Source: Candidatus Poseidoniales archaeon (GTDB taxonomy: Archaea; Thermoplasmatota; Poseidoniia; MGIII; CG-Epi1). From it: DNA of 64,000 nt. The stretch covers positions 2,226 to 66,225 of the forward strand of contig JBJLBX010000013.1 of assembly GCA_045567955.1 (NCBI GenBank). Direction: 5' to 3'. This document shows, in pieces, positions 49,747 to 61,619 of this stretch. Below the pieces are notes generated by a model. That model did no database searches. It saw nothing but the letters and a program-made list of their open reading frames with translations, and was not told the origin of the DNA. A program made the translations under genes and the position numbers. Every line of letters begins with the position of its first letter. Position 1 is the stretch's first letter.

Positions 49747-49868
49747 TATTCACCTTTTTCAGGACTTTAGCAGAAAGATAGGTGTAGTTATTGTTTATCA
49801 TATTTTTTTTGCATATATTTTGGACATTAGCCCGAACTCTTTTAATAGGGTTTTGCAACAGGGTAGAT

Positions 49869-50228
49869 GTGCTTGGACATGAGTACGTTCCCATAGGGAT
49901 TTTTGCGCTAATTGCGTTATCATTTCCTATAATGACATTTTTTATCGGAAGGTTCTTCCGACCGCATAATGATAATTCTCTCAAAAATTCAACTTATGAG
50001 TGTGGAGAGGTTCCAATGGGTGAGGCACATATTCAATTTCATTTCCAATATTATATGTTTGCAATTTTATTCTTAGTATTTGATTTAGTTGTAGTGTTTC
50101 TGATTCTTTGGGTACAAGTTTACCTTCAGTTAGCAATTGCCGCAAAAGTAGTAATGATGTTATTTCTGCTTTTAACTCTTCTAGGTTTGTGGTATGCGTT
50201 CAAGAAAGAGGATGTCATCTGGATATGA
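49869..50228 (+). CDS. nuoA: complex I subunit NuoA
   Basis: YECGEVPMGEAHIQFHFQYYMFAILFLVFDLVVVFL is the NuoA signature. I prefer the in-frame GTG at 49869 (119 aa) because the longer TTG-49791 ORF would include an A/T-rich promoter-like stretch. The start remains uncertain. Confidence 0.85.
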   Translation: MLGHEYVPIGIFALIALSFPIMTFFIGRFFRPHNDNSLKNSTYECGEVPMGEAHIQFHFQYYMFAILFLVFDLVVVFLILWVQVYLQLAIAAKVVMMLFLLLTLLGLWYAFKKEDVIWI

Positions 50229-50866
50229 GCTCAAAAAAGGTACGTGGTAATCCTAGCCTTAGGAAAGGAATTGGTTCTAAAACGACTGATTCAGATAAGA
50301 TAATGGAGGATCCTCCTGCAGGTGATTGGCTGGCTTTGCGATCAGATCAACTTTTGAAGTGGATTGATGATTCAGTATATAATGTGGCAGAAAGCACTGG
50401 TGTTCGTGAAGTAGTAGATAGAATTACTAGGCCAATTTTCAATTTTGCTCAAAGATTATCGCCCCACCCTTTACATTTTGGGATTATGTGTTGTGCAATT
50501 GAAATGGGTCAGGCTTCAGCCCCAGATCATGATATTGATAGGCTAGGTTTAGTTTATCGTTCTTCTCCACGTCAGTGTGATGTTTTGATAGTTAATGGTC
50601 CTGTTTGTGAAAAACTAAGGCCAAAATTGAAGACATTATATGAGCAAATGCCGGAACCTAAATGGGTTATTGCTATGGGTGAATGCGCTATTTCTGGAGG
50701 GCCGTATTGGGATTCTTATTCAGTGGTAGCTGGTGCTGATACTTTTATGCCAGTTGATGTCTACATACCAGGTTGTCCTGTTAGGCCAGAGGCTTTGATG
50801 CATGGATTTTTAACTTTACAGAAGAAAATTAGGGCTAAAGAGCCAGGTATGTTCCTTAGGAGATAA
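50225..50866 (+). CDS. nuoB: complex I subunit NuoB
   Basis: N2-cluster cysteines in GIMCCAIEM, GECAISGGPY and IPGCPVRPE. The ATG at 50225 overlaps the nuoA stop (ATGA). Confidence 0.9.
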   Translation: MSSKKVRGNPSLRKGIGSKTTDSDKIMEDPPAGDWLALRSDQLLKWIDDSVYNVAESTGVREVVDRITRPIFNFAQRLSPHPLHFGIMCCAIEMGQASAPDHDIDRLGLVYRSSPRQCDVLIVNGPVCEKLRPKLKTLYEQMPEPKWVIAMGECAISGGPYWDSYSVVAGADTFMPVDVYIPGCPVRPEALMHGFLTLQKKIRAKEPGMFLRR

Positions 50867-50869
50867 TAG

Positions 50870-51343
50870 ATGAATATTGATGAATTCATGCAGAAACTCT
50901 CGGCTTCTAAAGGAGTTTCTAATATTTCTAAAATAAGAGAGAATGTAGTGAAATTGGATTTGAGTAGAGAAGATTCTCAAGAGTTTTTTATTGGGATAAA
51001 GTCAGATTTTGAACATTGCTCATTGATAAGTGCTATTGATAATCAACCAGATTTTGAATTAGTTTACCATTTCTCTTGTATTAACAATTCAATTGTTGTT
51101 GAAGACAGCGATTATGCCGTTATGTTAGAGGCTCATGTTTATTTGAAGAGAGAATCGCCAAGCATTGATTCAATTTCAAATATTTGGTTTGGGGCAAATT
51201 GGCATGAAAGAGAAGCTTTTGATTTAATGGGTATCTATTTCATTGGACATCCAGATTTACGTAGAGTTCTTTTGCCGGAAGGGTTTGCAGGCCATCCACT
51301 CAGAAAAGATTATGTGTATGAAATACACGAGGAGGAGTGGTAA
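50870..51343 (+). CDS. nuoC: complex I subunit NuoC
   Basis: 157 aa. [32 protein letters not shown] signature. Confidence 0.9.
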
Positions 51344-52437
51344 TGGCTGAAATGTGGATTAGTATGGGTCCTCAACATCCTATGACTCATGGGCTTTGGA
51401 CTCTTAAGGTAAAAGTAGATGGTGAAACAATTGTTGATGCAGATCCTGAGTTAGGTTATCTTCATCGTTCAGTTGAAAAAATGGGGGAAAGAAGAAAGTA
51501 TTTCATGAATACTACGTTGACTGATAGGTTGTGCTATGCTAGTGCAACAACTTGGACTCATTGTTATACACATTCTGTTGAAGAATTAATGCATGTAGAA
51601 GTCCCAGTTCGTGCACAATATATTCGTACAATAATGTTAGAATTACAGAGATTGGCTTCACACCTTATGTGGGCTGGTGCTTACATGCCTGATTTAGGAC
51701 ATATTACGGGAGCTCTTTATTTCTGGAGAGATCGTGAATTATTTTTGAATCTTTTAGAACTTCCTAGTGGTAGTCGTTTACTTTATAATTATGTTAGAAT
51801 TGGTGGAGTTAAGAGAGATTTACCAGTAGGTTTTGAGGATAAAACTGAAAGAATACTTAAATTATTTGAACAAAGACTTGATGAATACGCAGATCTTTTT
51901 GAGAATTCAAAAATTTTTAGAATGCGTACCGATGATGTAGGTAAATTTACAGCAGATCAAGCAAAGAATTTAGGAATTACGGGTCCAAATCTAAGAGGTT
52001 GTGGAACAAAATTCGATTTGAGAAAGCATGATACTTATGAGATATATGAGGAAATAGATTGGGATATTTCTACTAGAGAAGCTGGACCTGGCTATAGTGA
52101 TTGTTTCAGTAGATATATGGTTAGAATAGATGAAATGAAAGAGTCTGTTCGCATTATAAGGGATTGTTTTAAGAAAATGCCAGCAGGACCTACTATGGCT
52201 TCTAATGTTCCAGTTAGAGCTCAAGGTGAAGCTTTCCGGAGAACTGAAGATTCAAGAGGCGAAGCAATGATGTATGTAGTTGGTGATGGTTCTGACAGGC
52301 CATATCGGTGGAAAATTAAGAGTCCTATGTTTACTACAATTTCAGCATGTCCACATTATCTTAAAGGTTACAAATTAGCTGATGTTCCTGCAATAATGGG
52401 AAGTATTGATATTTGTATAGGAGAGACTGACAAATGA
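51343..52437 (+). CDS. nuoD: complex I subunit NuoD
   Basis: MGPQHPMTHGLWTL, LGYLHRSVEK and a C-terminal IDICIGETDK. ATG at 51343 (TAATG with the nuoC stop) is preferred over GTG at 51337. Confidence 0.9.
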   Translation: MAEMWISMGPQHPMTHGLWTLKVKVDGETIVDADPELGYLHRSVEKMGERRKYFMNTTLTDRLCYASATTWTHCYTHSVEELMHVEVPVRAQYIRTIMLELQRLASHLMWAGAYMPDLGHITGALYFWRDRELFLNLLELPSGSRLLYNYVRIGGVKRDLPVGFEDKTERILKLFEQRLDEYADLFENSKIFRMRTDDVGKFTADQAKNLGITGPNLRGCGTKFDLRKHDTYEIYEEIDWDISTREAGPGYSDCFSRYMVRIDEMKESVRIIRDCFKKMPAGPTMASNVPVRAQGEAFRRTEDSRGEAMMYVVGDGSDRPYRWKIKSPMFTTISACPHYLKGYKLADVPAIMGSIDICIGETDK

Positions 52438-53666
52438 GTTTGTTTTCAGTATGTCGTTCAATGGCTGAGTGGACGGCTACAAATCTACTTATTCCTGTTT
52501 TTAATTTTCAGGCAGGTTTATTTCCGCCGTTTAGTAATCCGGCAGGTTCTATTGCTGATTGGTTAGAGACGGATGGTGGTCTAAACACATTAGCTTGGGC
52601 CTATGCTGTGAATATAGCATTTATGGTAGGTATGACTAATCTAATTTTGGTTATTCATTTAGAAAGGAAAATAGCAGCCCGTATACAGGATCGTAGAGGT
52701 CCTATGTTATCTTTAAGATCATTTAGAGAATTAGGTGAAGATTTAGCAGGTGAAAAGCCTACTTGGAAATTTAAGGATAATTACAGTGGAATTGGTATAG
52801 TTCAGAATATAGTAGATGGGATTAAGGCTATAACAAAAGAATTAATTGTACCTGCTAAAGCCGATCGTTTTTTATTTACAATGGGTCCTGTAATTTTTAT
52901 TTCTTCTTCAGTATTTTTGTTGGTATTATTTCCTTTATCTGATAGATTTGCAGCTTCTTCAGCTCCAGCTGGTCTGATGGTAATTATGGCTGCTTTTTCT
53001 ATAGCTCCTATAGGTGTTTTGACTTCTGGTTGGGCCTCTAATAATAAATATTCAATGATTGGAGGAATGAGATCAGCAGCTCAGTTGATGTCTTATGAAA
53101 TACCACTATTGTTGAGTATGGCTGGAGTCTTTCTTTTGGCTGGTTCATTTGATCCTGTAACGATTGTAGAACAACAGCAAGAAGGTACTTGGTTTTTTGG
53201 TTTACCAATGTGGAATTTTATTCCTCAGTTCATTGGTTTTGTTGTTTTTATGATTTGTATTCTTGCTGAAGTTGAAAGAGTTCCATTTGATTTACCTGAA
53301 GCTGAAGCTGAATTAGTTGAGGGGTGGACTACTGAATACAGTGGTATTCGTTTCATGTTCTTTCTGATGGCAGAATATATTCGAGGTTTTGCAGGTGCTG
53401 CAGTGGCTACAATATTATTCTTGGGAGGTTGGGCAGGTCCTTGGCCAGTTCCTCCAGAAATCTGGTTTTTAATAAAAGTATATTTAATAATAATATTTTG
53501 GATATTTATTAGATGGTCAGTTCCAAGAATACGTACTGATCAAATTCTAGAGCTTGGCTGGAAAAAATTATTACCTCTCTCATTAATTAATATCTTAATT
53601 GTAATATTTATGGTAGAAATATATCCTTATTTCTCAGATATAGTTAACTTGCCGGAGGTATTCTAA
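52434..53666 (+). CDS. nuoH: complex I subunit NuoH (with N-terminal extension and loop insertion)
   Basis: ERKIAARIQDRRGP...GIVQNIVDGIKAITKE, EVERVPFDLPEAEAELVEG and TEYSG motifs. 410 aa. Confidence 0.9.
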   Translation: MSLFSVCRSMAEWTATNLLIPVFNFQAGLFPPFSNPAGSIADWLETDGGLNTLAWAYAVNIAFMVGMTNLILVIHLERKIAARIQDRRGPMLSLRSFRELGEDLAGEKPTWKFKDNYSGIGIVQNIVDGIKAITKELIVPAKADRFLFTMGPVIFISSSVFLLVLFPLSDRFAASSAPAGLMVIMAAFSIAPIGVLTSGWASNNKYSMIGGMRSAAQLMSYEIPLLLSMAGVFLLAGSFDPVTIVEQQQEGTWFFGLPMWNFIPQFIGFVVFMICILAEVERVPFDLPEAEAELVEGWTTEYSGIRFMFFLMAEYIRGFAGAAVATILFLGGWAGPWPVPPEIWFLIKVYLIIIFWIFIRWSVPRIRTDQILELGWKKLLPLSLINILIVIFMVEIYPYFSDIVNLPEVF

Positions 53667-53667
53667 T

Positions 53668-54444
53668 ATGAGTAACGAAAGAGAACCGGGTTTGATGGAT
53701 ATTTTTGTAAATCCTATGAAAGTTACACTAAAACAATTTTTCAAGTCAACATTTGGTAAACCAACAACAGTTATGTATCCTCTTGAAAGAAGAGATCCAC
53801 CTCCAACTTATAGAGGAATGAATGCAGTAATTTGGGATTTATGTATTGGTTGTGGTATTTGTGGTGAAGTATGTCCTAATAAATGTCTAAAAATGAAACC
53901 AGAAGATTTATCTGAAGAAGAGCAAGATAGAGCTTGGTATGGTTCACATTTAGCAAAGAGGAAGAGTAAGGCTGAAAGGCCAGCTATCAATTTTGGGCAT
54001 TGTATGTTTTGTGGTTTTTGTGAAGATTATTGTCCTACTGGGGCTATGACTATGACGGATTTTTATGAGTTAGCAGATACTAACCGTGAAGGCTTAATTT
54101 ATCCTGCAAGGTCTATGAAAGTAGAATTAGAAGAATTACCACAGTTGCCTCTTACAAATTATATGATGGAATCTCCTGTTCTTGATGCAGATCCATGTAT
54201 TGGGTGCAGTAAGTGTGTAGATAATTGTCCAACAAATTGTATCATTATGGACTTGGGCCCTCAGAACAAAAAATTGAAGAGTGGTAAAACTAGAAATGTA
54301 GAAAACCCTTATTTCGATTATACCATTTGTATTGGCTGCTCAACATGTGTCAAAGTATGTCCTGCAGACTGTCTCCATATGGAACCAATTAGTAATTCAA
54401 GTTCTAGTGGATTAACAACTGAAGAAACTACGCAGGAGGCCTAG
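53668..54444 (+). CDS. nuoI: complex I subunit NuoI fused to a second 2x[4Fe-4S] ferredoxin domain
   Basis: Four CxxCxxCxxxCP motifs: CIGCGICGEVCP, CMFCGFCEDYCP, CIGCSKCVDNCP and CIGCSTCVKVCP. 258 aa. Confidence 0.85.
   Translation: MSNEREPGLMDIFVNPMKVTLKQFFKSTFGKPTTVMYPLERRDPPPTYRGMNAVIWDLCIGCGICGEVCPNKCLKMKPEDLSEEEQDRAWYGSHLAKRKSKAERPAINFGHCMFCGFCEDYCPTGAMTMTDFYELADTNREGLIYPARSMKVELEELPQLPLTNYMMESPVLDADPCIGCSKCVDNCPTNCIIMDLGPQNKKLKSGKTRNVENPYFDYTICIGCSTCVKVCPADCLHMEPISNSSSSGLTTEETTQEA
54115..54441 (+). other. extra C-terminal 2x[4Fe-4S] ferredoxin-like domain of NuoI
   Basis: Residues ~150-258 lie beyond the canonical NuoI core and contain the 3rd and 4th CxxCxxCxxxCP motifs. Confidence 0.7.
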
Positions 54445-54446
54445 TT

Positions 54447-54710
54447 GTGGATTTAGTTTTAGTGATTTTTTGGTTTCTAGCATCATTAATCCTTGCTTCT
54501 GCATGGGCTGTTGTTAATGGTAATGATATTGTACATTCAGTAGTATGGTTAGCAACTGTTTTTCTTTTGACGGCGTGTTTGTTTATTATTGCAGATGCTG
54601 AATTCTTAGCAGTTATACAAGTACTTGTGTATGTTGGTGCAATATCTGTAGTTATTATCTTTGGAATTATGTTGACTAAAAGAACATTGAAGGGTGGTGA
54701 GGATGTCTAG
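54447..54710 (+). CDS. nuoJ: complex I subunit NuoJ, N-terminal part (TM1-3)
   Basis: 87 aa, GTG start. AEFLAVIQVLVYVGAISVVIIFGIML corresponds to the conserved NuoJ TM3. Confidence 0.8.
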   Translation: MDLVLVIFWFLASLILASAWAVVNGNDIVHSVVWLATVFLLTACLFIIADAEFLAVIQVLVYVGAISVVIIFGIMLTKRTLKGGEDV

Positions 54711-55518
54711 TAGAAGTACAATTTGGGTTAGAGATGCCTTAGTTATAACATTTTCATTTTATGTTGTTTTTTCACTTGCTTTAGCTCCTTGGAATAATTT
54801 AGAACTTGATTCACATAATTCGGGTATTTGTAGTGACGGTTGTGCACCTTCTATAGTTTTTCCAGACGATGATTATTATCATTATACAAATTCTATTGAA
54901 TTTGAATGGGCTCCAGTTTCAGTAAGTTATATGCATATTGTAGTAGATGATGACAATGGTGAAACAATATTTCAAGGTAATATTACAACTAATGAATCTC
55001 AAACACCTAGATTACCTCCAGGTAACTATACTTCTAGAATTTACTATGCTGGTATGGGTGGGAGTTCTTTAGGAGATAATATTGTAGATATGCCTTTACT
55101 ACTTACAGAAGAACAATCTACAGTTACAGCTTCTAAACTTTCAGTAGTTTGGCCAACTGTAAGTGTAACTTATGGTTTAATGATAAATATTAATGAGCAA
55201 GTAAGTGCTGATAAATATGATACAGTTTATTTGGATTCATTCACTTTAGTTCATCAAGTAGATGGATTAGTGGATACAAAATATACATATTCCGATTTTA
55301 TTAGCGGAGAAACTTATTCTTGGACAGTTTATGCAATTGATTCAGAAGGTTTTATTTCAGAATTCTCAGATGTTAGGGATGTAAATATAGACACTACTAA
55401 ATTTTTGGCTTATGAATTGTTTAATGATTGGGAAGTTCCATTTATTTTGCTAGGTGTTTTAATGGTAATAGCATTACAAGCTGGTGTTTTCTTAGCTAGG
55501 GAGGAGCGAGATGATTGA
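54694..55518 (+). CDS. nuoJ: complex I subunit NuoJ, C-terminal part (TM4-TM5) with ~200-aa inserted extracytoplasmic domain
   Basis: The C-terminus LFNDWEVPFILLGVLMVIALQAGVFLAREERDD matches recalled E. coli NuoJ LFGPYVLAVELASMLLLAGLVVAFHVGREER. Between TM4 and TM5 lie two related ~85-aa repeats. The start may be the ATG at 54703. Confidence 0.75.
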   Translation: MVRMSSRSTIWVRDALVITFSFYVVFSLALAPWNNLELDSHNSGICSDGCAPSIVFPDDDYYHYTNSIEFEWAPVSVSYMHIVVDDDNGETIFQGNITTNESQTPRLPPGNYTSRIYYAGMGGSSLGDNIVDMPLLLTEEQSTVTASKLSVVWPTVSVTYGLMININEQVSADKYDTVYLDSFTLVHQVDGLVDTKYTYSDFISGETYSWTVYAIDSEGFISEFSDVRDVNIDTTKFLAYELFNDWEVPFILLGVLMVIALQAGVFLAREERDD

Positions 55519-55813
55519 TCCTATTAATTTTGTAGTGTTTTCTTCAATATTATTATTGATTGGAGCTTATGGTGTGATTCGGAATAAGAATGCTATTGTT
55601 GTTTTGATGTCTGTAGAAATTATGCTCACAGCTGCAAACATAAATTTTGTAGCCTTTTCAACTTTTTATAATGTTTTATCAGGTCAAATAGTAGTACTTT
55701 TTGTAACTACTATTGCGGCAGCAGAGGTTGCTATAGGTTTAGCGATATTATTAAGTTTATTTAAACAAAGAGGCACAATTGAGTTGGATTTACTCAATAA
55801 GTTGAGGTGGTAA
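55511..55813 (+). CDS. nuoK: complex I subunit NuoK
   Basis: 100 aa with 3 TM helices. LIGAYGVIRNKNAIVVLMSVEIMLTAANINFVAFS signature. Confidence 0.9.
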   Translation: MIDPINFVVFSSILLLIGAYGVIRNKNAIVVLMSVEIMLTAANINFVAFSTFYNVLSGQIVVLFVTTIAAAEVAIGLAILLSLFKQRGTIELDLLNKLRW

Positions 55814-55943
55814 TATAAGTAGTAAGGATAATAATTCAGATTCGGATATTGGTATAGTCTCCTTAGTAAGTATAGTTTTTGCTTTAATATTACTTTTTAT
55901 TTTCACAGATCAATTTTCTTCAGATTTTGTTAGTGTAGCTTGG

Positions 55944-57992
55944 ATGATACCCGTATTTCCTATAGTTTCATTTGCTTTAATTCTTTTATTTGGAATGTAT
56001 GATCCAAGAAGAGGTGGATATTTTGCTTTAGTTGGTGTTGGTCTTTCTTCAGTATTTTCTATAGCTGTTGTTTATGAGGTTCTAATTCTGGATTCATTAC
56101 ATGGTGGTTTTATTGAATCTACTCGGACATGGTTTGGTGGAGAAACATATTCTTTTGAGTTTGGTACATACATCGACAGTTTGGCTGCAATTTTATTATT
56201 GGTTGTTGGATTTGTTTCATATTTAGTAGTTTTATTTTCTACAAGTTACATGAATGAAGATGGTGATCGGCAAATTAGGTATTTTTCAGAAATTTGTTTG
56301 TTCGTAGGTGTAATGCTTGGTTTAGTTATTGCTAATTCTTTCTTATTGATGTTTATTTTCTGGGAGTTAGTTGGTGTTTGTTCTTATTTATTAATTGGAT
56401 TTTGGTATGAAAAACCATCTGCAGCTTCAGCAGCTAAGAAAGCATTTTTGGTAACACGTGTAGGAGATGTTTTCCTTTTATTAGGTTTAATCATCCTTTT
56501 CAATACTTTTGGTACACTTAGATATTCTGAATTATTCAATGACCCTGAACTATTGGCTGCTAATGCTACTGAAGTGAAATGGGCTACACTTTGTTTATTT
56601 GGTGGTGCTGTAGGTAAATCAGCTCAGTTTCCCTTGCATGTCTGGCTTCCTGATGCTATGGAAGGGCCAACTACAGTTTCAGCCTTGATTCATGCTGCAA
56701 CTATGGTCAAAGCAGGCGTTTTCTTAGTTGCTAGGGCTTATCCATTGATTGTTCACAGTCCTGATACGGCAATCTACATTGCAGTTACAGGTGGTGTGAC
56801 TGCATTCATTGCAGCGAGTATGGCAATGGTTATGAATGATATCAAACGAGTTTTAGCTTATTCAACAATTTCACAACTTGGTTATATGTTTTTGGCGCTT
56901 GGAACTGGGGCCTGGGCATTTTGGCATGCAACTGAAGAAGGTTTAGACATTCATGTCCAAGGATATACTGCAGGTTTATTCCATTTGATGAATCATGCTT
57001 TCTTCAAAGCTTTACTTTTCCTTGGTTCAGGTGCAGTTATACATTCAGTACATACTCAAGATATGAGAGAAATGGGTGGGTTGAGAAAATCTATGCCTGT
57101 TACTTCTTTGACAATGGGTCTTGGAGTATTATCTATTGCAGGTGTTCCTTTCTTCTCAGGTTTTTGGTCTAAAGATGAGATTTTAGAAGCAGTTCACCAT
57201 AATGGAGAAGCTGAAGGTATCTTTGGAGCACTCTGGTGGCTTGCTCTGTTGACAGCTGCAATGACTGCATTTTACATGACAAGGCTTTGGATGATGACAT
57301 TTAGTGGACCAGAAAAAAGGACAATTAGTGAGATGGAGCCATCTAAAGACCATGAAGAAACAGGTAACTGGGAATTATCTAAAAAGGACGTTAAAATACA
57401 TGCGCATGAAGCTCCATTAGTAATGACAATACCTCTTATGCTTTTAGCTTTTATGGCCGTATTTTCAGGATTTTTATTATTCATTGGTGATGGGTTTGGT
57501 TCAAGAATTTATTTTGGCCACCACGATAGCACTGAAGGTGTTATTCAGTGGGGAATTATTGATCATATTCTTTCGTCATCACTTACTTATTTATCAGTAG
57601 TTGTAGGCCTTACTGGAGTAATATTAGGATATTTATTTTACAAACGTAGTAGTAATGGTGAAACTATACTTTCAACATCTTCTATTTCAGAAAATATTGT
57701 TTTTGGTCCACTACATACTTTTCTTTCTAACAGATTGTATATGTCTAAATTATTTGATTGGTTTGGAATGAGAACTTGGGATACTTTTGCAAAAGCCTGT
57801 GACTGGTTTGATAGAAACATTATTGACGGTATGGTAAATGGGACGGCATACATTACTCAAATTTTTAGTAGCAGAATTAGAAAGTTAAACTCTGGTTTTA
57901 CAGGTCATTATGCTTCTTTGACAGTTGGTGGTCTTGGTGCTATAGTGCTGCTTACTAGAGTTATAATGCCAATAATGGGGTGGTCAATTTGA
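55944..57992 (+). CDS. nuoL: complex I subunit NuoL
   Basis: 682 aa. FIFWELVGVCSYLLIGFWY and WLPDAMEGPTTVSALIHAATMVKAGVF motifs, with a long C-terminal extension (lateral helix region). Confidence 0.9.
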   Translation: MIPVFPIVSFALILLFGMYDPRRGGYFALVGVGLSSVFSIAVVYEVLILDSLHGGFIESTRTWFGGETYSFEFGTYIDSLAAILLLVVGFVSYLVVLFSTSYMNEDGDRQIRYFSEICLFVGVMLGLVIANSFLLMFIFWELVGVCSYLLIGFWYEKPSAASAAKKAFLVTRVGDVFLLLGLIILFNTFGTLRYSELFNDPELLAANATEVKWATLCLFGGAVGKSAQFPLHVWLPDAMEGPTTVSALIHAATMVKAGVFLVARAYPLIVHSPDTAIYIAVTGGVTAFIAASMAMVMNDIKRVLAYSTISQLGYMFLALGTGAWAFWHATEEGLDIHVQGYTAGLFHLMNHAFFKALLFLGSGAVIHSVHTQDMREMGGLRKSMPVTSLTMGLGVLSIAGVPFFSGFWSKDEILEAVHHNGEAEGIFGALWWLALLTAAMTAFYMTRLWMMTFSGPEKRTISEMEPSKDHEETGNWELSKKDVKIHAHEAPLVMTIPLMLLAFMAVFSGFLLFIGDGFGSRIYFGHHDSTEGVIQWGIIDHILSSSLTYLSVVVGLTGVILGYLFYKRSSNGETILSTSSISENIVFGPLHTFLSNRLYMSKLFDWFGMRTWDTFAKACDWFDRNIIDGMVNGTAYITQIFSSRIRKLNSGFTGHYASLTVGGLGAIVLLTRVIMPIMGWSI

Positions 57993-58354
57993 ATAAGTTT
58001 TTGGGAATTTTTGCTTTAGTAGGATTATTTATCTTATTTTCAGGTAGTGCTAATGCTGAAAATCATACAGTAATTGTCACTCAGGCTGATGATTTTTCTT
58101 CTTATTACTTTGAACCTAATGTTTTAGAAATAGAAGTTGGTGATAATGTACTATTTGTCTGGGGTAATGGCTCTCATAATGTGGCGCAAGTTTCAGATTC
58201 AGACTCTAATGATTATAATCTTGGTTTCTATTCAGGAGCTTCACAAGAAGGAGGTAATTGGTCGCTTCCATCTGAGTTCACTTCACAGGATGGAACTTTG
58301 TATTATGTTTGTGAACCTCATGCTACAATGAATATGCGTGGTTCAATAATAGTG
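57980..58354 (+). other. signal peptide-like segment + plastocyanin/halocyanin-like blue-copper domain
   Basis: FLGIFALVGLFILFSGSANA|EN, then a beta-rich ~100 aa with His (WGNGSHNVAQV) and the C-x2-H-x4-M ligand set (VCEPHATMNM). Confidence 0.75.
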
Positions 58355-59869
58355 GGTTCTGGATCATTACCGCTTCCTGAGATTTCTATGGAGTTTAGTG
58401 ATTTTCCTTGGTTATCATATCTTTTAGTATTTCCTCTCATTGGAGCTCTTTGGTCCATTAGCTTTAGTAACACACCTAACGCACCTCGATTGATTGCTTT
58501 ATTCACTACTTTGTTTACTTTAGTTATATCTATAATTGTTTTCATGAAAACGGGGTCAAAATCAGGTTATAGTTTGATGGAAGAATATGAATGGGCACCA
58601 AATTTAGGTATATCATTATTATTTGGTGTGGACGGTTTGAGTTCTCCACTGATCTTATTGACGGGAATAATAGGTCCTTTAACCGTTATTTTTGCATGGG
58701 AAGAAAAAGAAAAGCCAGGTCTTTTCTTTAGTTTACTTTTAGTTATGCAAACTGCACTTTATGGTGTATTTGTCACACTTGATTATTTTGTCTTTTATGT
58801 ATTTTGGGAAATTGTTTTGATACCTATGTTTTTCCTAATTGCAATATGGGGTGGAGAGAATAGAAGATACGCTTCAATTAAATTTTTCATTTATACTTTT
58901 ACAGCTTCAGTAATTATGCTAGTAGGTTTTATGGCTCTATATTTTGAATCTGGAGCTAATTCTTTTTCAATGATTGACATTGCGAATAGCAACAGAGAAT
59001 TTACAGAAGATTTCCAGATTTGGGTTTTTGCTGCATTGTTTATAGGTTTTGCAGTTAAGATACCTTCATTTCCATGGCACACTTGGCTGCCAGATGCACA
59101 TGTTCAAGCTCCAACAGCAGGATCTATTTTATTGGCTGGTGTGATGCTTAAAATGGGACTTTATGGACTTATTAGAGCAGCATTACCTGCATTACCTTTG
59201 GGAGCTATTTATTTTGTCCCAATTATGGTGATTTTAGCAGTTATTTCTATTCTTTACGGTGCAGCTTTAAGTTTAGGGCAAACTGATTTGAAAAAGTTGG
59301 TAGCTTATTCTAGTGTTTCTCATATGGGGGTTGCATTACTTGGTGTTGCTACAATGACGGAGTTAGGTTTGGCTGGTGCCGTATTCATGATGTTTGCTCA
59401 TGGAATTTTGAGTCCTGCAATGTTTATGATTGCTGGAGTTTTACTCCATCAAGTAGGAACAAGAGAAATTCCTAAATTAGGTGGATTAGCAAGACATCAA
59501 CCAAGAACTACGGGTATTTTTGTTGTAATTTTTATGGGAAGTCTTGGCTTACCAGGAATGGCGGTTTTTGTAGCTGAATTAGCTGTATTCATAGCTTTCT
59601 TTCAATCTCATGGTTACTGGCTTTTATTGCCTATTTTTGGTATGGTTTTAACAGCAGGTTATCATCTTTGGGCATTGCAGAGAGCAATTTTTGGAAAAGA
59701 CAGTGAAGAAATAGAAATAGGTAAGGTTCATGAGGCTCCATGGTATGAATTCTATCCTATGTTTACAATAATAATAATTGCAGCATTATTCGGTATCTTT
59801 CCACATTATTTGATGGATCCGATTAATACTGCCTGCTATGATATTTTGAATTTTATGGGAGTACTCTAA
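57980..59869 (+). CDS. nuoM: cupredoxin (type-1 copper) domain fused to complex I subunit NuoM
   Basis: A continuous 629-aa ORF: signal-like N-terminus, a cupredoxin ligand pattern (GSHNV ... YYVCEPHATMNMRG), then a full NuoM (GVDGLSSPLILLTG, WLPDAHVQAPTAGSILLAGVMLKMGLYG). Confidence 0.85.
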   Translation: MVNLNKFLGIFALVGLFILFSGSANAENHTVIVTQADDFSSYYFEPNVLEIEVGDNVLFVWGNGSHNVAQVSDSDSNDYNLGFYSGASQEGGNWSLPSEFTSQDGTLYYVCEPHATMNMRGSIIVGSGSLPLPEISMEFSDFPWLSYLLVFPLIGALWSISFSNTPNAPRLIALFTTLFTLVISIIVFMKTGSKSGYSLMEEYEWAPNLGISLLFGVDGLSSPLILLTGIIGPLTVIFAWEEKEKPGLFFSLLLVMQTALYGVFVTLDYFVFYVFWEIVLIPMFFLIAIWGGENRRYASIKFFIYTFTASVIMLVGFMALYFESGANSFSMIDIANSNREFTEDFQIWVFAALFIGFAVKIPSFPWHTWLPDAHVQAPTAGSILLAGVMLKMGLYGLIRAALPALPLGAIYFVPIMVILAVISILYGAALSLGQTDLKKLVAYSSVSHMGVALLGVATMTELGLAGAVFMMFAHGILSPAMFMIAGVLLHQVGTREIPKLGGLARHQPRTTGIFVVIFMGSLGLPGMAVFVAELAVFIAFFQSHGYWLLLPIFGMVLTAGYHLWALQRAIFGKDSEEIEIGKVHEAPWYEFYPMFTIIIIAALFGIFPHYLMDPINTACYDILNFMGVL

Positions 59870-61362
59870 TGGAACCATCCAGTTTGTTTTTGCCTGAAAT
59901 AGTGCTTGTTGCCAGCATAATGACTATACCTGGTTTGTATATGCTGACTGGAACTAAAAAATCGTTTGCCTTGTGTTCTAATTTGACACTTGCTAGTATT
60001 TTGTTATTCCTAATTATTTCATGGTTTGATCCAGATACTTTATCAATGGAAAATGAAGTTTCAATATTCTTACTATATGGCCATTTCAAAATAGATGTTT
60101 TCTCTCAAATCTTTAAGATTATGTTTGTTCTTGTGGCTCTTGTAGTATCTTTGATAAGTAGCTCTTATTTTGATGAGGATGAGCCCCATCAAGCAGAATA
60201 CTATACTTTATTATTATCAAGTACATTAGGAATGCTAGTTGTAGCTTCAGCTAATGATTTCCTAACACTTTTCTTGGGTATTGAAATTTCAGCATTTAGT
60301 AGCTATGCTCTTGTTGCTTTCAGAAAGCAGGATGATAACTCTGCTGAAGCTGGAGCGAAGTATCTCTTGATTGGTGCTTTTTCTTCTGGTTTAACTCTTT
60401 ATGGAATATCTTTACTTTATGCAGTTACTGGATCATTAACTTTTGATGGAGTTCACTCATTTATTGATGGCATATCTCAAGGAGTTGTAGATGGTAATTT
60501 TAATGAAGTTATATTCATATCAAGTTTATTCATAATTGCTGGTCTTGGTTTTAAAATAGCTGTAGTTCCTTTCCATGCTTGGGCTCCTGATGTTTATCAG
60601 GGTGCTCCAACACCTGTAACAACGTTATTGGCAGCAGCAAGTAAAGGAATGGGATTCATTGCAATATTTAGAGTATTTTCATTTACTTTGGAATCAGTAT
60701 CTGATGAGTGGAAATTAGTTTTGGGCCTTATTGCTTTGGCTTCTATGACTCTTGGTAATTTAGCTGCAATATCACAGGAAGATATTGGTCGGATGTTAGC
60801 TTATTCTTCTATTGCACAGGCAGGATATATTATGATTGCAATACCTGCTATGACCGATGATGCTATGTCTGGAGCTATCGCACATACTTTGATTCATGCA
60901 TTTATGAAAGGTGGTGCCTTTGTTGTAGTAGCTGGTCTGGGTGCTGTTGGTTTAGGTTACAGTCTTGATTCTTACAAGGGTTTGGCACAACGTTCACAGT
61001 TACTGGCTCTTTCTATGACAGTTTGTCTTCTTTCGTTAGTAGGTATTCCGCCGTTTGCAGGTTTTATCAGTAAATTCTTATTATTTTATGGTACACTTCA
61101 GGCAGGTTTATCTGGAGAAACCTGGATTATAGCTTTAGTAATTGCAGGTGTACTTAATTCTGCATTATCACTGTATTATTATCTTAAGATAATAAGATAT
61201 ATGTATCTGCACGAACCTGTGGAAGATAAAGAAGTAGTATTTTCTAATTCCATAAGGTATGTTTCATTAGTAACAATATTATTATTGGGAGTTATTTTCC
61301 CATTATATTGGCAATCTCTCTTTGAAATTTGTAAGGAGGCTTCAACAGCCTTAATGGGATGA
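59869..61362 (+). CDS. nuoN: complex I subunit NuoN
   Basis: 497 aa, 14-TM antiporter-like. FHAWAPDVYQGAPTPVTTLLAAASKGMGF signature. TAATG-coupled to nuoM. Confidence 0.9.
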   Translation: MEPSSLFLPEIVLVASIMTIPGLYMLTGTKKSFALCSNLTLASILLFLIISWFDPDTLSMENEVSIFLLYGHFKIDVFSQIFKIMFVLVALVVSLISSSYFDEDEPHQAEYYTLLLSSTLGMLVVASANDFLTLFLGIEISAFSSYALVAFRKQDDNSAEAGAKYLLIGAFSSGLTLYGISLLYAVTGSLTFDGVHSFIDGISQGVVDGNFNEVIFISSLFIIAGLGFKIAVVPFHAWAPDVYQGAPTPVTTLLAAASKGMGFIAIFRVFSFTLESVSDEWKLVLGLIALASMTLGNLAAISQEDIGRMLAYSSIAQAGYIMIAIPAMTDDAMSGAIAHTLIHAFMKGGAFVVVAGLGAVGLGYSLDSYKGLAQRSQLLALSMTVCLLSLVGIPPFAGFISKFLLFYGTLQAGLSGETWIIALVIAGVLNSALSLYYYLKIIRYMYLHEPVEDKEVVFSNSIRYVSLVTILLLGVIFPLYWQSLFEICKEASTALMG

Positions 61363-61619
61363 TTGATAAAAAAAGTGCAACATATTTACAGTTTGAGAAA
61401 TTGTGGGATGGTATTACTCCCAAAGGCAAGAATCATTCTAAAAAGGATACTTTTAGATCTCGAATGAAAAATTCATGTCAGCAGGAAGGTTTGGAATTTA
61501 GTAAAATTAATTCATATTTTATATTTTCAGGTGACAGTAAGAAATTAGATTCAGATACACGAATGGATGGTGACGTCAAAATATCTAAACCACCTAGACG
61601 TCATTTAAGAAAATTTTAG
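61359..61619 (+). CDS. hypothetical basic soluble protein, translationally coupled to nuoN
   Basis: 86-aa ORF with an ATGA overlap with the nuoN stop. No TM helices and no family motif. Its 3' end overlaps the convergent idsA-like gene by 4 nt. Confidence 0.4.
   Translation: MIDKKSATYLQFEKLWDGITPKGKNHSKKDTFRSRMKNSCQQEGLEFSKINSYFIFSGDSKKLDSDTRMDGDVKISKPPRRHLRKF

What the first reader, a model, noticed from the sequence alone, without database searches (positions are those of the whole stretch)
53668..54444. NuoI carries four instead of two 4Fe-4S motifs (extra ferredoxin domain) in an operon lacking nuoEFG
Canonical NuoI has two CxxCxxCxxxCP motifs (clusters N6a/N6b). This 258-aa protein has four: CIGCGICGEVCP, CMFCGFCEDYCP, CIGCSKCVDNCP and CIGCSTCVKVCP. 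The last two lie in a ~110-aa C-terminal extension (nt ~54115-54441). The operon has no NADH-oxidising module (nuoE/F/G). The added 2x[4Fe-4S] domain is therefore a plausible built-in electron-entry wire from ferredoxin or another low-potential donor.
Basis: partly seen in the sequence, partly recalled or inferred. Interest (0 to 1): 0.6.

Follow-up and report, generated by a model that had tools for sequence, protein, structure and literature searches.

The report
Four-cluster NuoI in headless complex I
In this marine archaeon the iron-sulfur subunit NuoI of respiratory complex I carries a conserved extra ferredoxin-like domain with two more iron-sulfur clusters, most likely the built-in socket through which electrons enter an enzyme that lacks the usual NADH-oxidising head.

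Summary
Window 53668-54444 (+) is one 258-aa ORF with four CxxCxxCxxxCP motifs. Residues about 24-150 are a bona fide NuoI. Residues about 166-242 are a PorD/PsaC-type 2x[4Fe-4S] domain.

The gene lies in a nuoABCDHIJ1J2KLMN operon of a Marine Group III archaeon (Poseidoniia, Thermoplasmatota). I found no NuoE or NuoF anywhere in the genome (76% complete).

The fusion is neither an artefact nor a private oddity:
- 39 of 42 family genomes carry it as a single ORF.
- All 16 cysteines are invariant down to 27% identity.
- The same architecture is the FpoI of Methanomassiliicoccales, whose "headless" Fpo complex is held to oxidise ferredoxin.

In one genome of the sister family (G025), a GltD-type FAD/NAD(P)H module of 484 residues sits exactly in the loop between motifs 3 and 4. 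It forms a cis-fused alternative N-module in the syntenic operon, and a tree indicates that this insert is derived.

Best reading: the extra domain is the electron-input adaptor.

Not shown: cluster distances, because no model coordinates were available, and the donor in this genus. 2-oxoacid:ferredoxin oxidoreductase and NDH-2 were not found here. Two acidic zinc-type ferredoxin homologues are present.

I found no paper describing the domain.

The parts
53668..54444 (+). nuoI, 258 aa: NuoI core plus C-terminal dicluster ferredoxin domain, one ORF
   Evidence: intact in 39 of 42 family genomes
53692..53754 (+). N-terminal amphipathic helix (residues 9-29), as in other NuoI subunits
   Evidence: AF2 model, helix H9-29; low to middling confidence (block pLDDT 53-68)
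53803..54117 (+). canonical NuoI 2x[4Fe-4S] core (residues 46-150), carrying motif 1 (53842-53877) and motif 2 (54001-54036), the counterparts of clusters N6a/N6b
   Evidence: TIGR01971 above cut-off; structural match to NuoI chains of solved complex I, Z 10-12
54118..54162 (+). acidic linker (residues 151-165) between the two domains, modelled with block pLDDT 86-89
54163..54393 (+). extra PorD/PsaC-type 2x[4Fe-4S] domain (residues 166-242), carrying motif 3 (54196-54231) and motif 4 (54328-54363) around a beta-hairpin loop rich in Lys/Arg (residues 193-219)
   Evidence: TIGR02179 above cut-off; fold matches 5c4i_B Z 10.6 rmsd 1.6, 9bt4_H Z 10.9, PsaC Z 9.4, DPD C-terminus Z 9.1; 8 Cys invariant; pN 0.105
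54265..54300 (+). loop residues 200-211 (NKKLKSGKTRNV): the site where the sister-family protein P0028 (genome G025) carries a 484-residue GltD-type FAD/NAD(P)H module
   Evidence: BLASTP P0001 vs P0028: 9-199 aligns to 80-270 and 212-241 aligns to 754-783; Pfam Fer4_20 + Pyr_redox_2 in between
54394..54441 (+). Ser/Thr/Glu-rich C-terminal tail (residues 243-258), predicted disordered and poorly conserved
   Evidence: pLDDT below 50; aa identity 0.62 and pN 0.254
49791..53666 (+). nuoA, nuoB, nuoC, nuoD, nuoH upstream in the same operon (the listed starts of nuoA and nuoB are probably too far upstream)
   Evidence: Pfam and NCBIfam
54447..61362 (+). nuoJ1, nuoJ2 (split NuoJ), nuoK, nuoL, nuoM (with N-terminal cupredoxin), nuoN downstream; no nuoE/F/G

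Best explanation
NuoI of this Marine Group III archaeon is a two-domain, four-cluster subunit. The N-terminal half is the ordinary NuoI, which holds the two clusters (N6a/N6b) that feed cluster N2 in NuoB and then the quinone site. The C-terminal half is a PorD/PsaC-type dicluster ferredoxin domain. PorD and PsaC are protein-bound dicluster subunits that pass electrons between an enzyme core and soluble ferredoxin. In an enzyme that has no NuoEFG head, this domain most likely sits where NuoG sits in the 14-subunit enzyme. It would extend the cluster chain outward by two centres and serve as the built-in electron-input port. The proposed path is: donor, extra cluster 2, extra cluster 1, N6a, N6b, N2, quinone. 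The donor is modular across the lineage. In Methanomassiliicoccales, reduced ferredoxin is the accepted donor of the homologous complex. In bathypelagic-type Marine Group III genome G025, a GltD-like flavoprotein is grafted into the domain, so NAD(P)H can feed it in cis. In this genus I consider the most likely donor to be one of the two strongly acidic zinc-type ferredoxin homologues encoded in the genome. Shown: the architecture, its conservation, the fold class, the cis-GltD variant, the homology to FpoI, and that NuoE/F were not found. Inferred: that all four clusters are bound, their spacing, the direction of electron flow, and the donor.
For: Four motifs, two domains and family scores above cut-off for both halves. 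AF2 model with pLDDT 85-94 over residues 50-240 and pTM 0.69. N-domain matches NuoI of solved complex I, and C-domain matches PorD, the oxalate oxidoreductase Fd domain, PsaC and DPD domain V. All 16 Cys are invariant in 28 sequences at 27-90% identity. Purifying selection acts on the extra domain. It is a single ORF in 39 of 42 family genomes. G025 NuoI (P0028, 783 aa) equals this protein plus Fer4_20 + Pyr_redox_2 inserted between motifs 3 and 4, in the syntenic nuoABCDHIJKLMN operon. The insert-bearing pair is nested inside the insert-less clade, so a flavin NAD(P)H module was added onto a pre-existing domain; this makes sense only if the domain conducts electrons to or from N6a. The same architecture in the syntenic operon is the FpoI of Ca. 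Methanomassiliicoccus intestinalis (AGN25606.1, 38% identity over the full length) and of all 36 family-f6 genomes searched. That FpoF-less complex is described as ferredoxin-oxidising (PMC7374477). Model residues 42-160 superpose on E. coli NuoI 38-148, and the E. coli C-terminal tail 139-180 contacts mainly NuoG, NuoE and NuoF (PMC8357420 Table 3). The extension therefore starts on the N-module face. NuoE and NuoF were not found in the genome, and NuoF was found in 1 of 42 other genomes of the family. Two ferredoxin homologues with net charge -18 are encoded.
Against: No coordinates were available, so the spacing between N6a and the extra clusters is unmeasured, and no solved structure has the two domains together. 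POR_N (2-oxoacid:ferredoxin oxidoreductase) was not found in this genome or in the genus members with the most similar NuoI, and occurs in only 12 of 42 other genomes of the family, so the usual source of reduced ferredoxin is missing. Marine Group II relatives and many other archaea run a NuoEFG-less complex with a two-cluster NuoI, so the domain is not required for a headless enzyme. The complex prediction of NuoI with the genome's ferredoxin gave no answer. The loop's net charge is only 0 to +3. The ferredoxin dependence of the Methanomassiliicoccales enzyme is itself largely a model.
Confidence: 0.6

Rival explanations
1. The extra domain is a docking and wiring site for a dedicated dehydrogenase partner in trans, not for free ferredoxin. 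This would be an unrecognised NAD(P)H-oxidising or other flavoprotein that plugs onto it, as the GltD module does in cis in G025.
For: Family genomes that are at least 91% complete have dihydrolipoyl dehydrogenase (an NADH-producing 2-oxoacid dehydrogenase complex). Their only other strong Pyr_redox_2 protein is thioredoxin reductase, so no type-II NADH dehydrogenase was seen, and NuoF was found in only 1 of 42 other genomes of the family. NADH must therefore be reoxidised somewhere. The cis-GltD variant shows that the domain can be fed by a flavoprotein. OFOR is patchy.
Against: No candidate partner is encoded next to the operon. No GltD-like gene was found in the genome, and only one stray hit occurred in 42 family genomes. 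The homologous methanogen complex is thought to use free ferredoxin.
Confidence: 0.2
2. The domain is an electron exit. The complex runs in reverse, driven by proton-motive force, pushing electrons from quinol up to ferredoxin (or to NAD(P)+ in the GltD variant) for biosynthesis in an aerobe that lacks ferredoxin-reducing enzymes.
For: OFOR was not found in this sub-lineage, yet two ferredoxin homologues and four geranylgeranyl-reductase paralogues are present. My recollection is that some archaeal geranylgeranyl reductases depend on ferredoxin. GltD-type modules and iron-sulfur chains are reversible. Sequence cannot give the direction.
Against: An aerobic heterotroph with TCA and 2-oxoacid dehydrogenase enzymes needs an entry point for reducing equivalents, and no other one was found. 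The homologous methanogen enzyme is assigned the forward direction. No two-NuoM or other reverse-flow signature was examined.
Confidence: 0.1
3. The extra clusters are off-pathway and structural, like cluster N7 of NuoG in E. coli and Thermus. On this view the domain only stabilises the headless peripheral arm or is an evolutionary remnant.
For: Off-path clusters exist in complex I (N7 is named in PMC8357420). C-terminal extensions of NuoI in E. coli serve stabilisation. Marine Group II does without the domain.
Against: All eight Cys and the fold are kept across lineages that share only 27-47% identity. A redox flavoprotein was grafted into exactly this domain in G025. Forms with six motifs also exist, which looks like chain extension rather than decay.
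Confidence: 0.08
4. Artefact: two adjacent genes (nuoI and a ferredoxin gene) fused by an assembly or sequencing error.
For: None beyond the general risk in metagenome-assembled genomes. Half-length database entries exist (P0031, P0032, 132 aa each).
Against: The same uninterrupted ORF occurs in dozens of independent assemblies, including single-cell genomes and complete genomes of Methanomassiliicoccales. Other half-length hits (P0010-P0012, 144-173 aa) lie on contigs of about 0.6 kb, which points to truncated gene calls. Contigs from RNA libraries cross the domain boundary and the stop codon.
Confidence: 0.01

Closest known systems
FpoI of the FpoF-less ('headless') Fpo-like complex of Methanomassiliicoccales (e.g. 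Ca. Methanomassiliicoccus intestinalis AGN25606.1 / WP_020448131.1)
   Same: Same two-domain, four-motif architecture and about the same length (252 aa). It is 38% identical over the whole protein. It occupies the same operon position between H and a split J in A-B-C-D-H-I-J-K-L-M-N. The genome has no NuoF. The complex is described as ferredoxin-oxidising.
   Different: The host is a strictly anaerobic methanogen and its proposed acceptor is HdrD/heterodisulfide. Here the host is an aerobic marine heterotroph with quinone-type respiration genes.
Canonical NuoI / Nqo9 / TYKY / NdhI (TIGR01971), clusters N6a and N6b
   Same: Residues 24-150 score above the family cut-off, carry the two motifs and superpose on NuoI chains of solved complex I and NDH-1.
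   Different: The canonical subunit has 2 clusters and 130-180 aa. This one adds a whole dicluster domain of about 77 residues. It scores below the cut-offs of every species-level NuoI, NdhI and FpoI equivalog model.
NuoI-GltD fusion of mbx-like complexes (NCBIfam PRK13984; Thermotoga and proteobacteria, noted in PMC4758237)
   Same: An NAD(P)H-binding GltD flavoprotein is attached to the NuoI-type subunit as a substitute input/output module. The sister-family protein P0028 uses the same idea.
   Different: The window protein has no GltD part; it matches only positions 18-137 of 611 (98 bits against a 946-bit cut-off). In P0028 the GltD module is inserted inside the extra ferredoxin domain of a full 11-subunit complex I. 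In the mbx-like forms it follows NuoI in a small H-B-C-D-I cluster.
PorD (delta subunit of 2-oxoacid:ferredoxin oxidoreductases) and PsaC of photosystem I
   Same: The extra domain scores above the PorD_KorD cut-off. It superposes on PorD (9bt4_H), the oxalate oxidoreductase ferredoxin domain (5c4i_B, rmsd 1.6) and PsaC, including the long loop between the two motifs. These are enzyme-bound dicluster modules that hand electrons to or from soluble ferredoxin.
   Different: Here the module is fused to NuoI. No POR catalytic subunits were found in this genome.
Ferredoxin-accepting photosynthetic complex I (NDH-1) with NdhS/NdhV/NdhO
   Same: It is an 11-subunit core without NuoEFG that takes electrons from ferredoxin at NdhI. 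NdhI chains are among the structural matches (6khi_I, 6hum_I, 6l7o_I).
   Different: NDH-1 recruits cluster-free accessory subunits to bind ferredoxin directly at N6a. Here two additional clusters are built into NuoI itself.

Membership tests
NuoI (TIGR01971, NADH-quinone oxidoreductase chain I) | Profile score above the curated cut-off | tested here: met
   136.9 bits against cut-off 113.05, residues 24-147
NuoI (TIGR01971) | Two CxxCxxCxxxCP motifs forming a 2x[4Fe-4S] ferredoxin fold that superposes on solved NuoI/Nqo9/TYKY | tested here: met
   Motifs at residues 59 and 112; VIA-align Z 10-12 to 7awt_I, 8qby_I, 8e9g_I, 6hum_I; Foldseek E 2e-8
NuoI (TIGR01971) | Gene between nuoH and nuoJ in a nuo operon | tested here: met
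NuoI species-level equivalogs / NdhI (TIGR00403) / FpoI (NF040612) | Score above the equivalog cut-off | tested here: not met
   Best NuoI equivalog 129.8 against 163; NdhI 94.5 against 302; FpoI 89 against 180
PorD/KorD-type dicluster ferredoxin domain (TIGR02179) | Profile score above cut-off and a matching fold | tested here: met
   70.1 bits against 60.05 on residues 166-239; 9bt4_H Z 10.9 and 5c4i_B Z 10.6 rmsd 1.6
PorD/KorD-type dicluster ferredoxin domain | Association with POR/KOR alpha, beta and gamma subunits | tested here: not met
   POR_N not found in the own genome; found in 12 of 42 other genomes of the family
Four-cluster FpoI/NuoI of Thermoplasmatota (group defined here) | NuoI core plus a C-terminal dicluster domain in one ORF, with 16 conserved Cys | tested here: met
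   Alignment A1: 16 Cys invariant in 28 sequences; full-length matches in families f1, f6, f22, f31, f42, f44, f47 and f49
Four-cluster FpoI/NuoI of Thermoplasmatota | All four clusters actually bound and redox-active | not testable with these tools
   Needs EPR and iron analysis of the protein
NuoI-GltD fusion (PRK13984, NF010590) | GltD-type Fer4_20 + FAD/NAD(P) domain in the same polypeptide | tested here: not met
   The window protein matches model positions 18-137 only, 98 bits against 946. No GltD-like gene was found in the genome. The feature is met by sister-family P0028 at domain level.
14-subunit NADH:quinone oxidoreductase | NuoE, NuoF and NuoG present | tested here: not met
   PF01512 and PF01257 not found in the genome. 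PF01512 found in 1 of 42 other genomes of the family. NuoG was not searched separately.

The most novel reading that the evidence does not exclude
The extra dicluster domain is a general-purpose socket of the Thermoplasmatota complex I, onto which different electron-input modules are plugged. These would be free ferredoxin in methanogens, a cis-inserted GltD NAD(P)H module in bathypelagic Marine Group III, and a still unknown trans partner in the streamlined epipelagic Marine Group III. In the epipelagic group NuoF (1 stray hit in 42 genomes), NDH-2 and, in most genomes, OFOR were not found. If so, this subunit gives a concrete handle on the long-open question of what feeds the archaeal 11-subunit complex I. 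It would also show an N-module being invented a second time, independently of NuoEFG.
Probability: 0.3. Interest if true: 0.75.

Novelty: new variant of a known kind. Interest (0 to 1): 0.55.

Why it matters
What donates electrons to the 11-subunit, NuoEFG-less complex I of archaea and many bacteria is a recognised open question (PMC3144371, PMC11238625). Here the input-side subunit carries two additional clusters. The feature is conserved from abundant marine heterotrophs (Marine Group III) to gut methanogens (Methanomassiliicoccales). In one relative, G025, it hosts a fused NAD(P)H flavoprotein. This marks where electrons enter, and it offers a culturable system (Methanomassiliicoccus) and a natural cis-fusion (the G025 type) in which the pathway can be tested directly. 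It also bears on energy budgets of Marine Group III archaea, in whose most complete genomes no other recognisable NADH dehydrogenase was found.

Tried and rejected
1. Cluster geometry. Structure prediction returns no coordinates and /data holds only FASTA files, so edge-to-edge distances could not be computed. No solved chain matches both domains at once; the FwdF polyferredoxin aligns only at rmsd 23-26 A.

2. Complex prediction of NuoI residues 40-245 with the genome's zinc-type ferredoxin homologue gave 'no answer' (score 0.01, controls not run). This is evidence neither for nor against binding.

3. The search for related loci with the 28-sequence alignment failed because no stretch was conserved enough. 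The single-protein scan gave the organism names instead.

4. A separate GltD-like partner was sought in the own genome. The only hit was a 311-aa frame, which turned out to be a true thioredoxin reductase: above the TIGR01292 cut-off and with the CATC motif present.

5. A thioredoxin-reductase-type ferredoxin:NADP reductase was rejected for the same reason.

6. An electrostatic argument for ferredoxin docking is weak. The loop has many Lys/Arg but a net charge of only 0 to +3.

7. Literature. Eight full-text searches found no description of a four-cluster NuoI/FpoI. Lang et al. 2015 could not be opened, and the Kroninger papers were not found in the library, so prior mention there cannot be excluded.

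8. RNA evidence. Only sparse, low-depth contigs from marine RNA libraries lie on both halves of the gene. They are compatible with expression but prove nothing, because DNA carry-over is possible.
Full report
**1.

Window 53668-54444 (+) is a single ATG-to-stop ORF of 258 aa. It has four CxxCxxCxxxCP motifs, starting at residues 59, 112, 177 and 221. Pfam Fer4 reports four stretches.

The two halves belong to different families:
- TIGR01971 NuoI scores 136.9 bits (cut-off 113.05) on residues 24-147.
- TIGR02179 PorD_KorD scores 70.1 bits (cut-off 60.05) on residues 166-239.

None of the species-level NuoI, NdhI or FpoI equivalog models reaches its cut-off.

The flanking genes are nuoA, B, C, D and H upstream. 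Downstream are a split nuoJ, then nuoK, L, M and N. There is no nuoE, F or G in the operon.

Neither Complex1_51K (NuoF) nor 2Fe-2S_thioredx (NuoE) is found anywhere in the assembly, which has 0.99 Mb in 43 contigs and is 75.6% complete.

**2. Organism**

Record titles of near-identical loci name Marine Group III euryarchaeotes (CG-Epi1, CG-Bathy1), Candidatus Poseidoniia and Thermoplasmatota. GC content is 35%.

**3. The fusion is real and conserved**

- In the order (45 genomes), 39 of 42 other genomes of the window's family (three genera, genomes of about 1 Mb) carry the gene. In every locus I read it is one uninterrupted ORF with the four motifs at the same spacing.
- An exhaustive HMMER search of 1.84 billion representatives found more than 20 further 50%-identity clusters with the full two-domain architecture at 27-47% identity.
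- In an alignment of 28 such proteins, all 16 cysteines are invariant.
- Against 56 orthologues, synonymous sites are saturated (pS 0.73-0.88). pN is 0.052 in the NuoI core, 0.105 in the extra domain and 0.254 in the disordered tail. The extra domain is therefore under strong purifying selection.
- Half-length database hits are probably gene fragments: several (P0010-P0012) lie on contigs of about 0.6 kb.
- Sparse contigs from marine RNA libraries lie on both halves and cross the domain boundary and the stop codon. This is weak support for expression.

**4. Structure**

An AF2 model built from the alignment has mean pLDDT 80 and pTM 0.69, with pLDDT 85-94 over residues 50-240.

- Residues 42-160 superpose on NuoI/Nqo9/TYKY/NdhI chains of solved complex I (Z 10-12; Foldseek E about 1e-8).
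- Residues 161-246 superpose on PorD of Methanosarcina POR (Z 10.9), the ferredoxin domain of oxalate oxidoreductase (Z 10.6, rmsd 1.6 A), PsaC (Z 9.4) and the C-terminal dicluster domain of dihydropyrimidine dehydrogenase (Z 9.1).

These are all enzyme-bound dicluster modules that relay electrons to or from a partner.

No solved chain matches both domains in one alignment, and I had no access to model coordinates. The key geometric test, the distance from N6a to the extra clusters, could therefore not be done.

There is an indirect pointer. Model residues 42-160 align to E. coli NuoI 38-148. The E. coli C-terminal tail 139-180 runs onto NuoG (805 A2), NuoE and NuoF (PMC8357420, Table 3). The extra domain therefore leaves the core on the face where the N-module sits in the 14-subunit enzyme.

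**5. The most informative relative**

In the sister family (genomes of 2.6-2.9 Mb), genome G025 has a syntenic nuoABCDHIJKLMN operon. Its NuoI is 783 aa (P0028).

- It aligns with the window protein at 61% identity over residues 9-199, and at 70% over residues 212-241.
- In place of the 12 loop residues 200-211, it carries 484 residues that are Fer4_20 plus Pyr_redox_2. This is a GltD/NfnB/DPD-type module binding two [4Fe-4S] clusters, FAD and NAD(P)H.
- A maximum-likelihood tree places the two insert-bearing sequences (P0028, P0030) inside the insert-less clade. The Marine Group III clade has SH-aLRT support 99. The nearest neighbour, P0009, lacks the insert (support 85), and all outgroups lack it. 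The flavoprotein was therefore grafted into a pre-existing domain.
- The second genome of that family, G026, has its copy cut off by a contig end.

A flavin NAD(P)H module inserted exactly here is hard to explain unless the two extra clusters communicate with N6a. In effect it is an alternative, cis-fused N-module.

A GltD-type replacement or extension of NuoI is already known for mbx-like clusters of Thermotoga and proteobacteria (PMC4758237; NCBIfam PRK13984; an example in a bacterial H-B-C-D-I cluster). I found no description of one inside a full 11-subunit complex I.

**6. Wider distribution and the link to ferredoxin**

In a sample of 301 Thermoplasmatota genomes:
- Full-length, four-motif matches occur in all 8 Marine Group III family genomes sampled.
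- They occur in all 36 genomes of family f6. This family holds small, mostly complete genomes. One has the contig length I recall for Ca. Methanoplasma termitum, but that identification rests on my memory.
- They occur in G215 and in several other families.
- Marine Group II (0 of 63) and many other families have a two-cluster NuoI.

G215's protein is AGN25606.1 / WP_020448131.1 of Ca. Methanomassiliicoccus intestinalis. Borrel et al. list this accession as fpoI of the FpoF/FpoO-less Fpo-like complex, which also has a split fpoJ (PMC4153887). It is 38% identical to the window protein over the whole length and sits in the syntenic operon.

That "headless" complex is described as oxidising the reduced ferredoxin made by MvhADG/HdrABC (PMC7374477).

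None of the papers I could search mentions the extra domain.

**7. What feeds it in this genus is not settled**

- Two zinc-type dicluster ferredoxin homologues are encoded. Both are strongly acidic (net charge -18), and both score below the family cut-off.
- POR_N was not found in this genome or in the genus members with the most similar NuoI. It occurs in only 12 of 42 other genomes of the family.
- The genome has dihydrolipoyl dehydrogenase and an E2 component, so it makes NADH.
- In five family genomes that are 91-97% complete, the only strong Pyr_redox_2 proteins are dihydrolipoyl dehydrogenase and thioredoxin reductase. No type-II NADH dehydrogenase was seen.
- The thioredoxin reductase keeps its CATC motif, so it is not a TrxR-type FNR.
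- No GltD-like gene was found.

An unrecognised partner acting in trans therefore remains a serious alternative. So does reverse operation, with ferredoxin reduction driven by proton-motive force.

The complex prediction with the ferredoxin gave no answer.

Absence of NuoEFG does not by itself predict the domain. Marine Group II genomes lack NuoF too, and their NuoI is two-cluster with a long insert between the motifs.

**8. Verdict**

- The domain is very probably a redox-active adaptor on the input side of a headless complex I (my estimate 0.6).
- Soluble ferredoxin as the donor in this genus is plausible but unproven.
- The feature is a previously undescribed variant of NuoI/FpoI, as far as I could search. 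It is shared by Marine Group III and Methanomassiliicoccales.
- The GltD-inserted form found in G025 is the most novel element, and it gives a direct experimental handle.

Noticed in passing
L011:6960-9311 (-) = G025:C15, protein P0028: NuoI of sister-family genome G025 is 783 aa. A GltD-type Fer4_20 + Pyr_redox_2 (FAD/NAD(P)H) module is inserted between motifs 3 and 4 of the extra ferredoxin domain, in a full nuoABCDHIJKLMN operon. This is a cis-fused alternative N-module. A 719-aa metagenomic relative (P0030) has the same layout.
   Followed up: yes
L038:3357-6803 (+) in G025:C16; also L017 in G026:C15: Paralogues of the motif-GltD-motif unit (54% identical to P0028 residues 246-781) lie inside proteins of 1006-1148 aa. 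The G025 copy also has an HdrA-like FAD domain and a further dicluster domain, and sits next to 2-oxoacid:ferredoxin oxidoreductase alpha and beta genes. It may be a 2-oxoacid:NAD(P)+ system.
   Followed up: partly
L012:7331-8317 (+) = G029 (Marine Group II), protein P0029: Marine Group II NuoI is 328 aa with only two cluster motifs, separated by an acidic insert of about 110 residues. The second motif lacks the final Pro, and the C-terminus is Lys/Ala-rich.
   Followed up: no
L090:3787-5904 (+) = G128:C10: In another Thermoplasmatota family, NuoH and NuoI are fused into one 705-aa protein (NADHdh at residues 81-391, dicluster at 488-550). Frames of similar size occur in several genomes of that family.
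   Followed up: partly
L033:8367-9810 (GCA_030157145.1, JASDBE010000015.1): A four-motif NuoI (269 aa, 43% identical) occurs with only NuoB beside it, next to a luciferase-like oxidoreductase, a Rieske protein and an HdrD-like Fer4+CCG protein. This looks like a NuoB-NuoI module outside a complex I operon.
   Followed up: no
P0015, P0034, P0062, P0084, P0109 (metagenomic proteins): NuoI-like proteins with six CxxCxxCxxxC motifs (305-564 aa) exist, so the cluster chain on NuoI can be extended by four centres as well as two.
   Followed up: no
window 57980-58450 (+): The N-terminus of NuoM carries a plastocyanin/azurin-type copper-binding domain (Pfam Copper-bind, E 1.9e-9). The G025 NuoM aligns only from residue 160, so the domain appears absent there.
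   Followed up: partly
window 54447-55518 (+) and 61359-61619 (+): NuoJ is split into an 87-aa ORF and a 274-aa ORF; the second has no Pfam match. An 86-aa ORF with no family match overlaps the nuoN stop.
   Followed up: no
L035:1329-5066 (+) = G000:C33:26328-30065: The own genome has a cluster encoding cytochrome b, an Fe-S protein (351 aa), a CCG (HdrD-like) protein and a 280-aa protein with four Fer4 stretches. It may be a membrane quinol-linked redox complex.
   Followed up: partly
L037:2106-2726 (-) = G000:C33 and L036:2208-2609 (+) = G000:C26: There are two paralogous acidic zinc-ferredoxin-like genes (both below the family cut-off). The longer one (206 aa) has a C-terminal extension ending in a CxxC...CxxC zinc-ribbon-like motif.
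   Followed up: partly
G050, G052, G057, G043, G002 (whole genomes): In five Marine Group III family genomes that are 91-97% complete, the only strong Pyr_redox_2 proteins are dihydrolipoyl dehydrogenase and thioredoxin reductase. No type-II NADH dehydrogenase was seen, and across the family NuoF was found in only 1 of 42 genomes. How NADH is reoxidised is unclear.
   Followed up: partly
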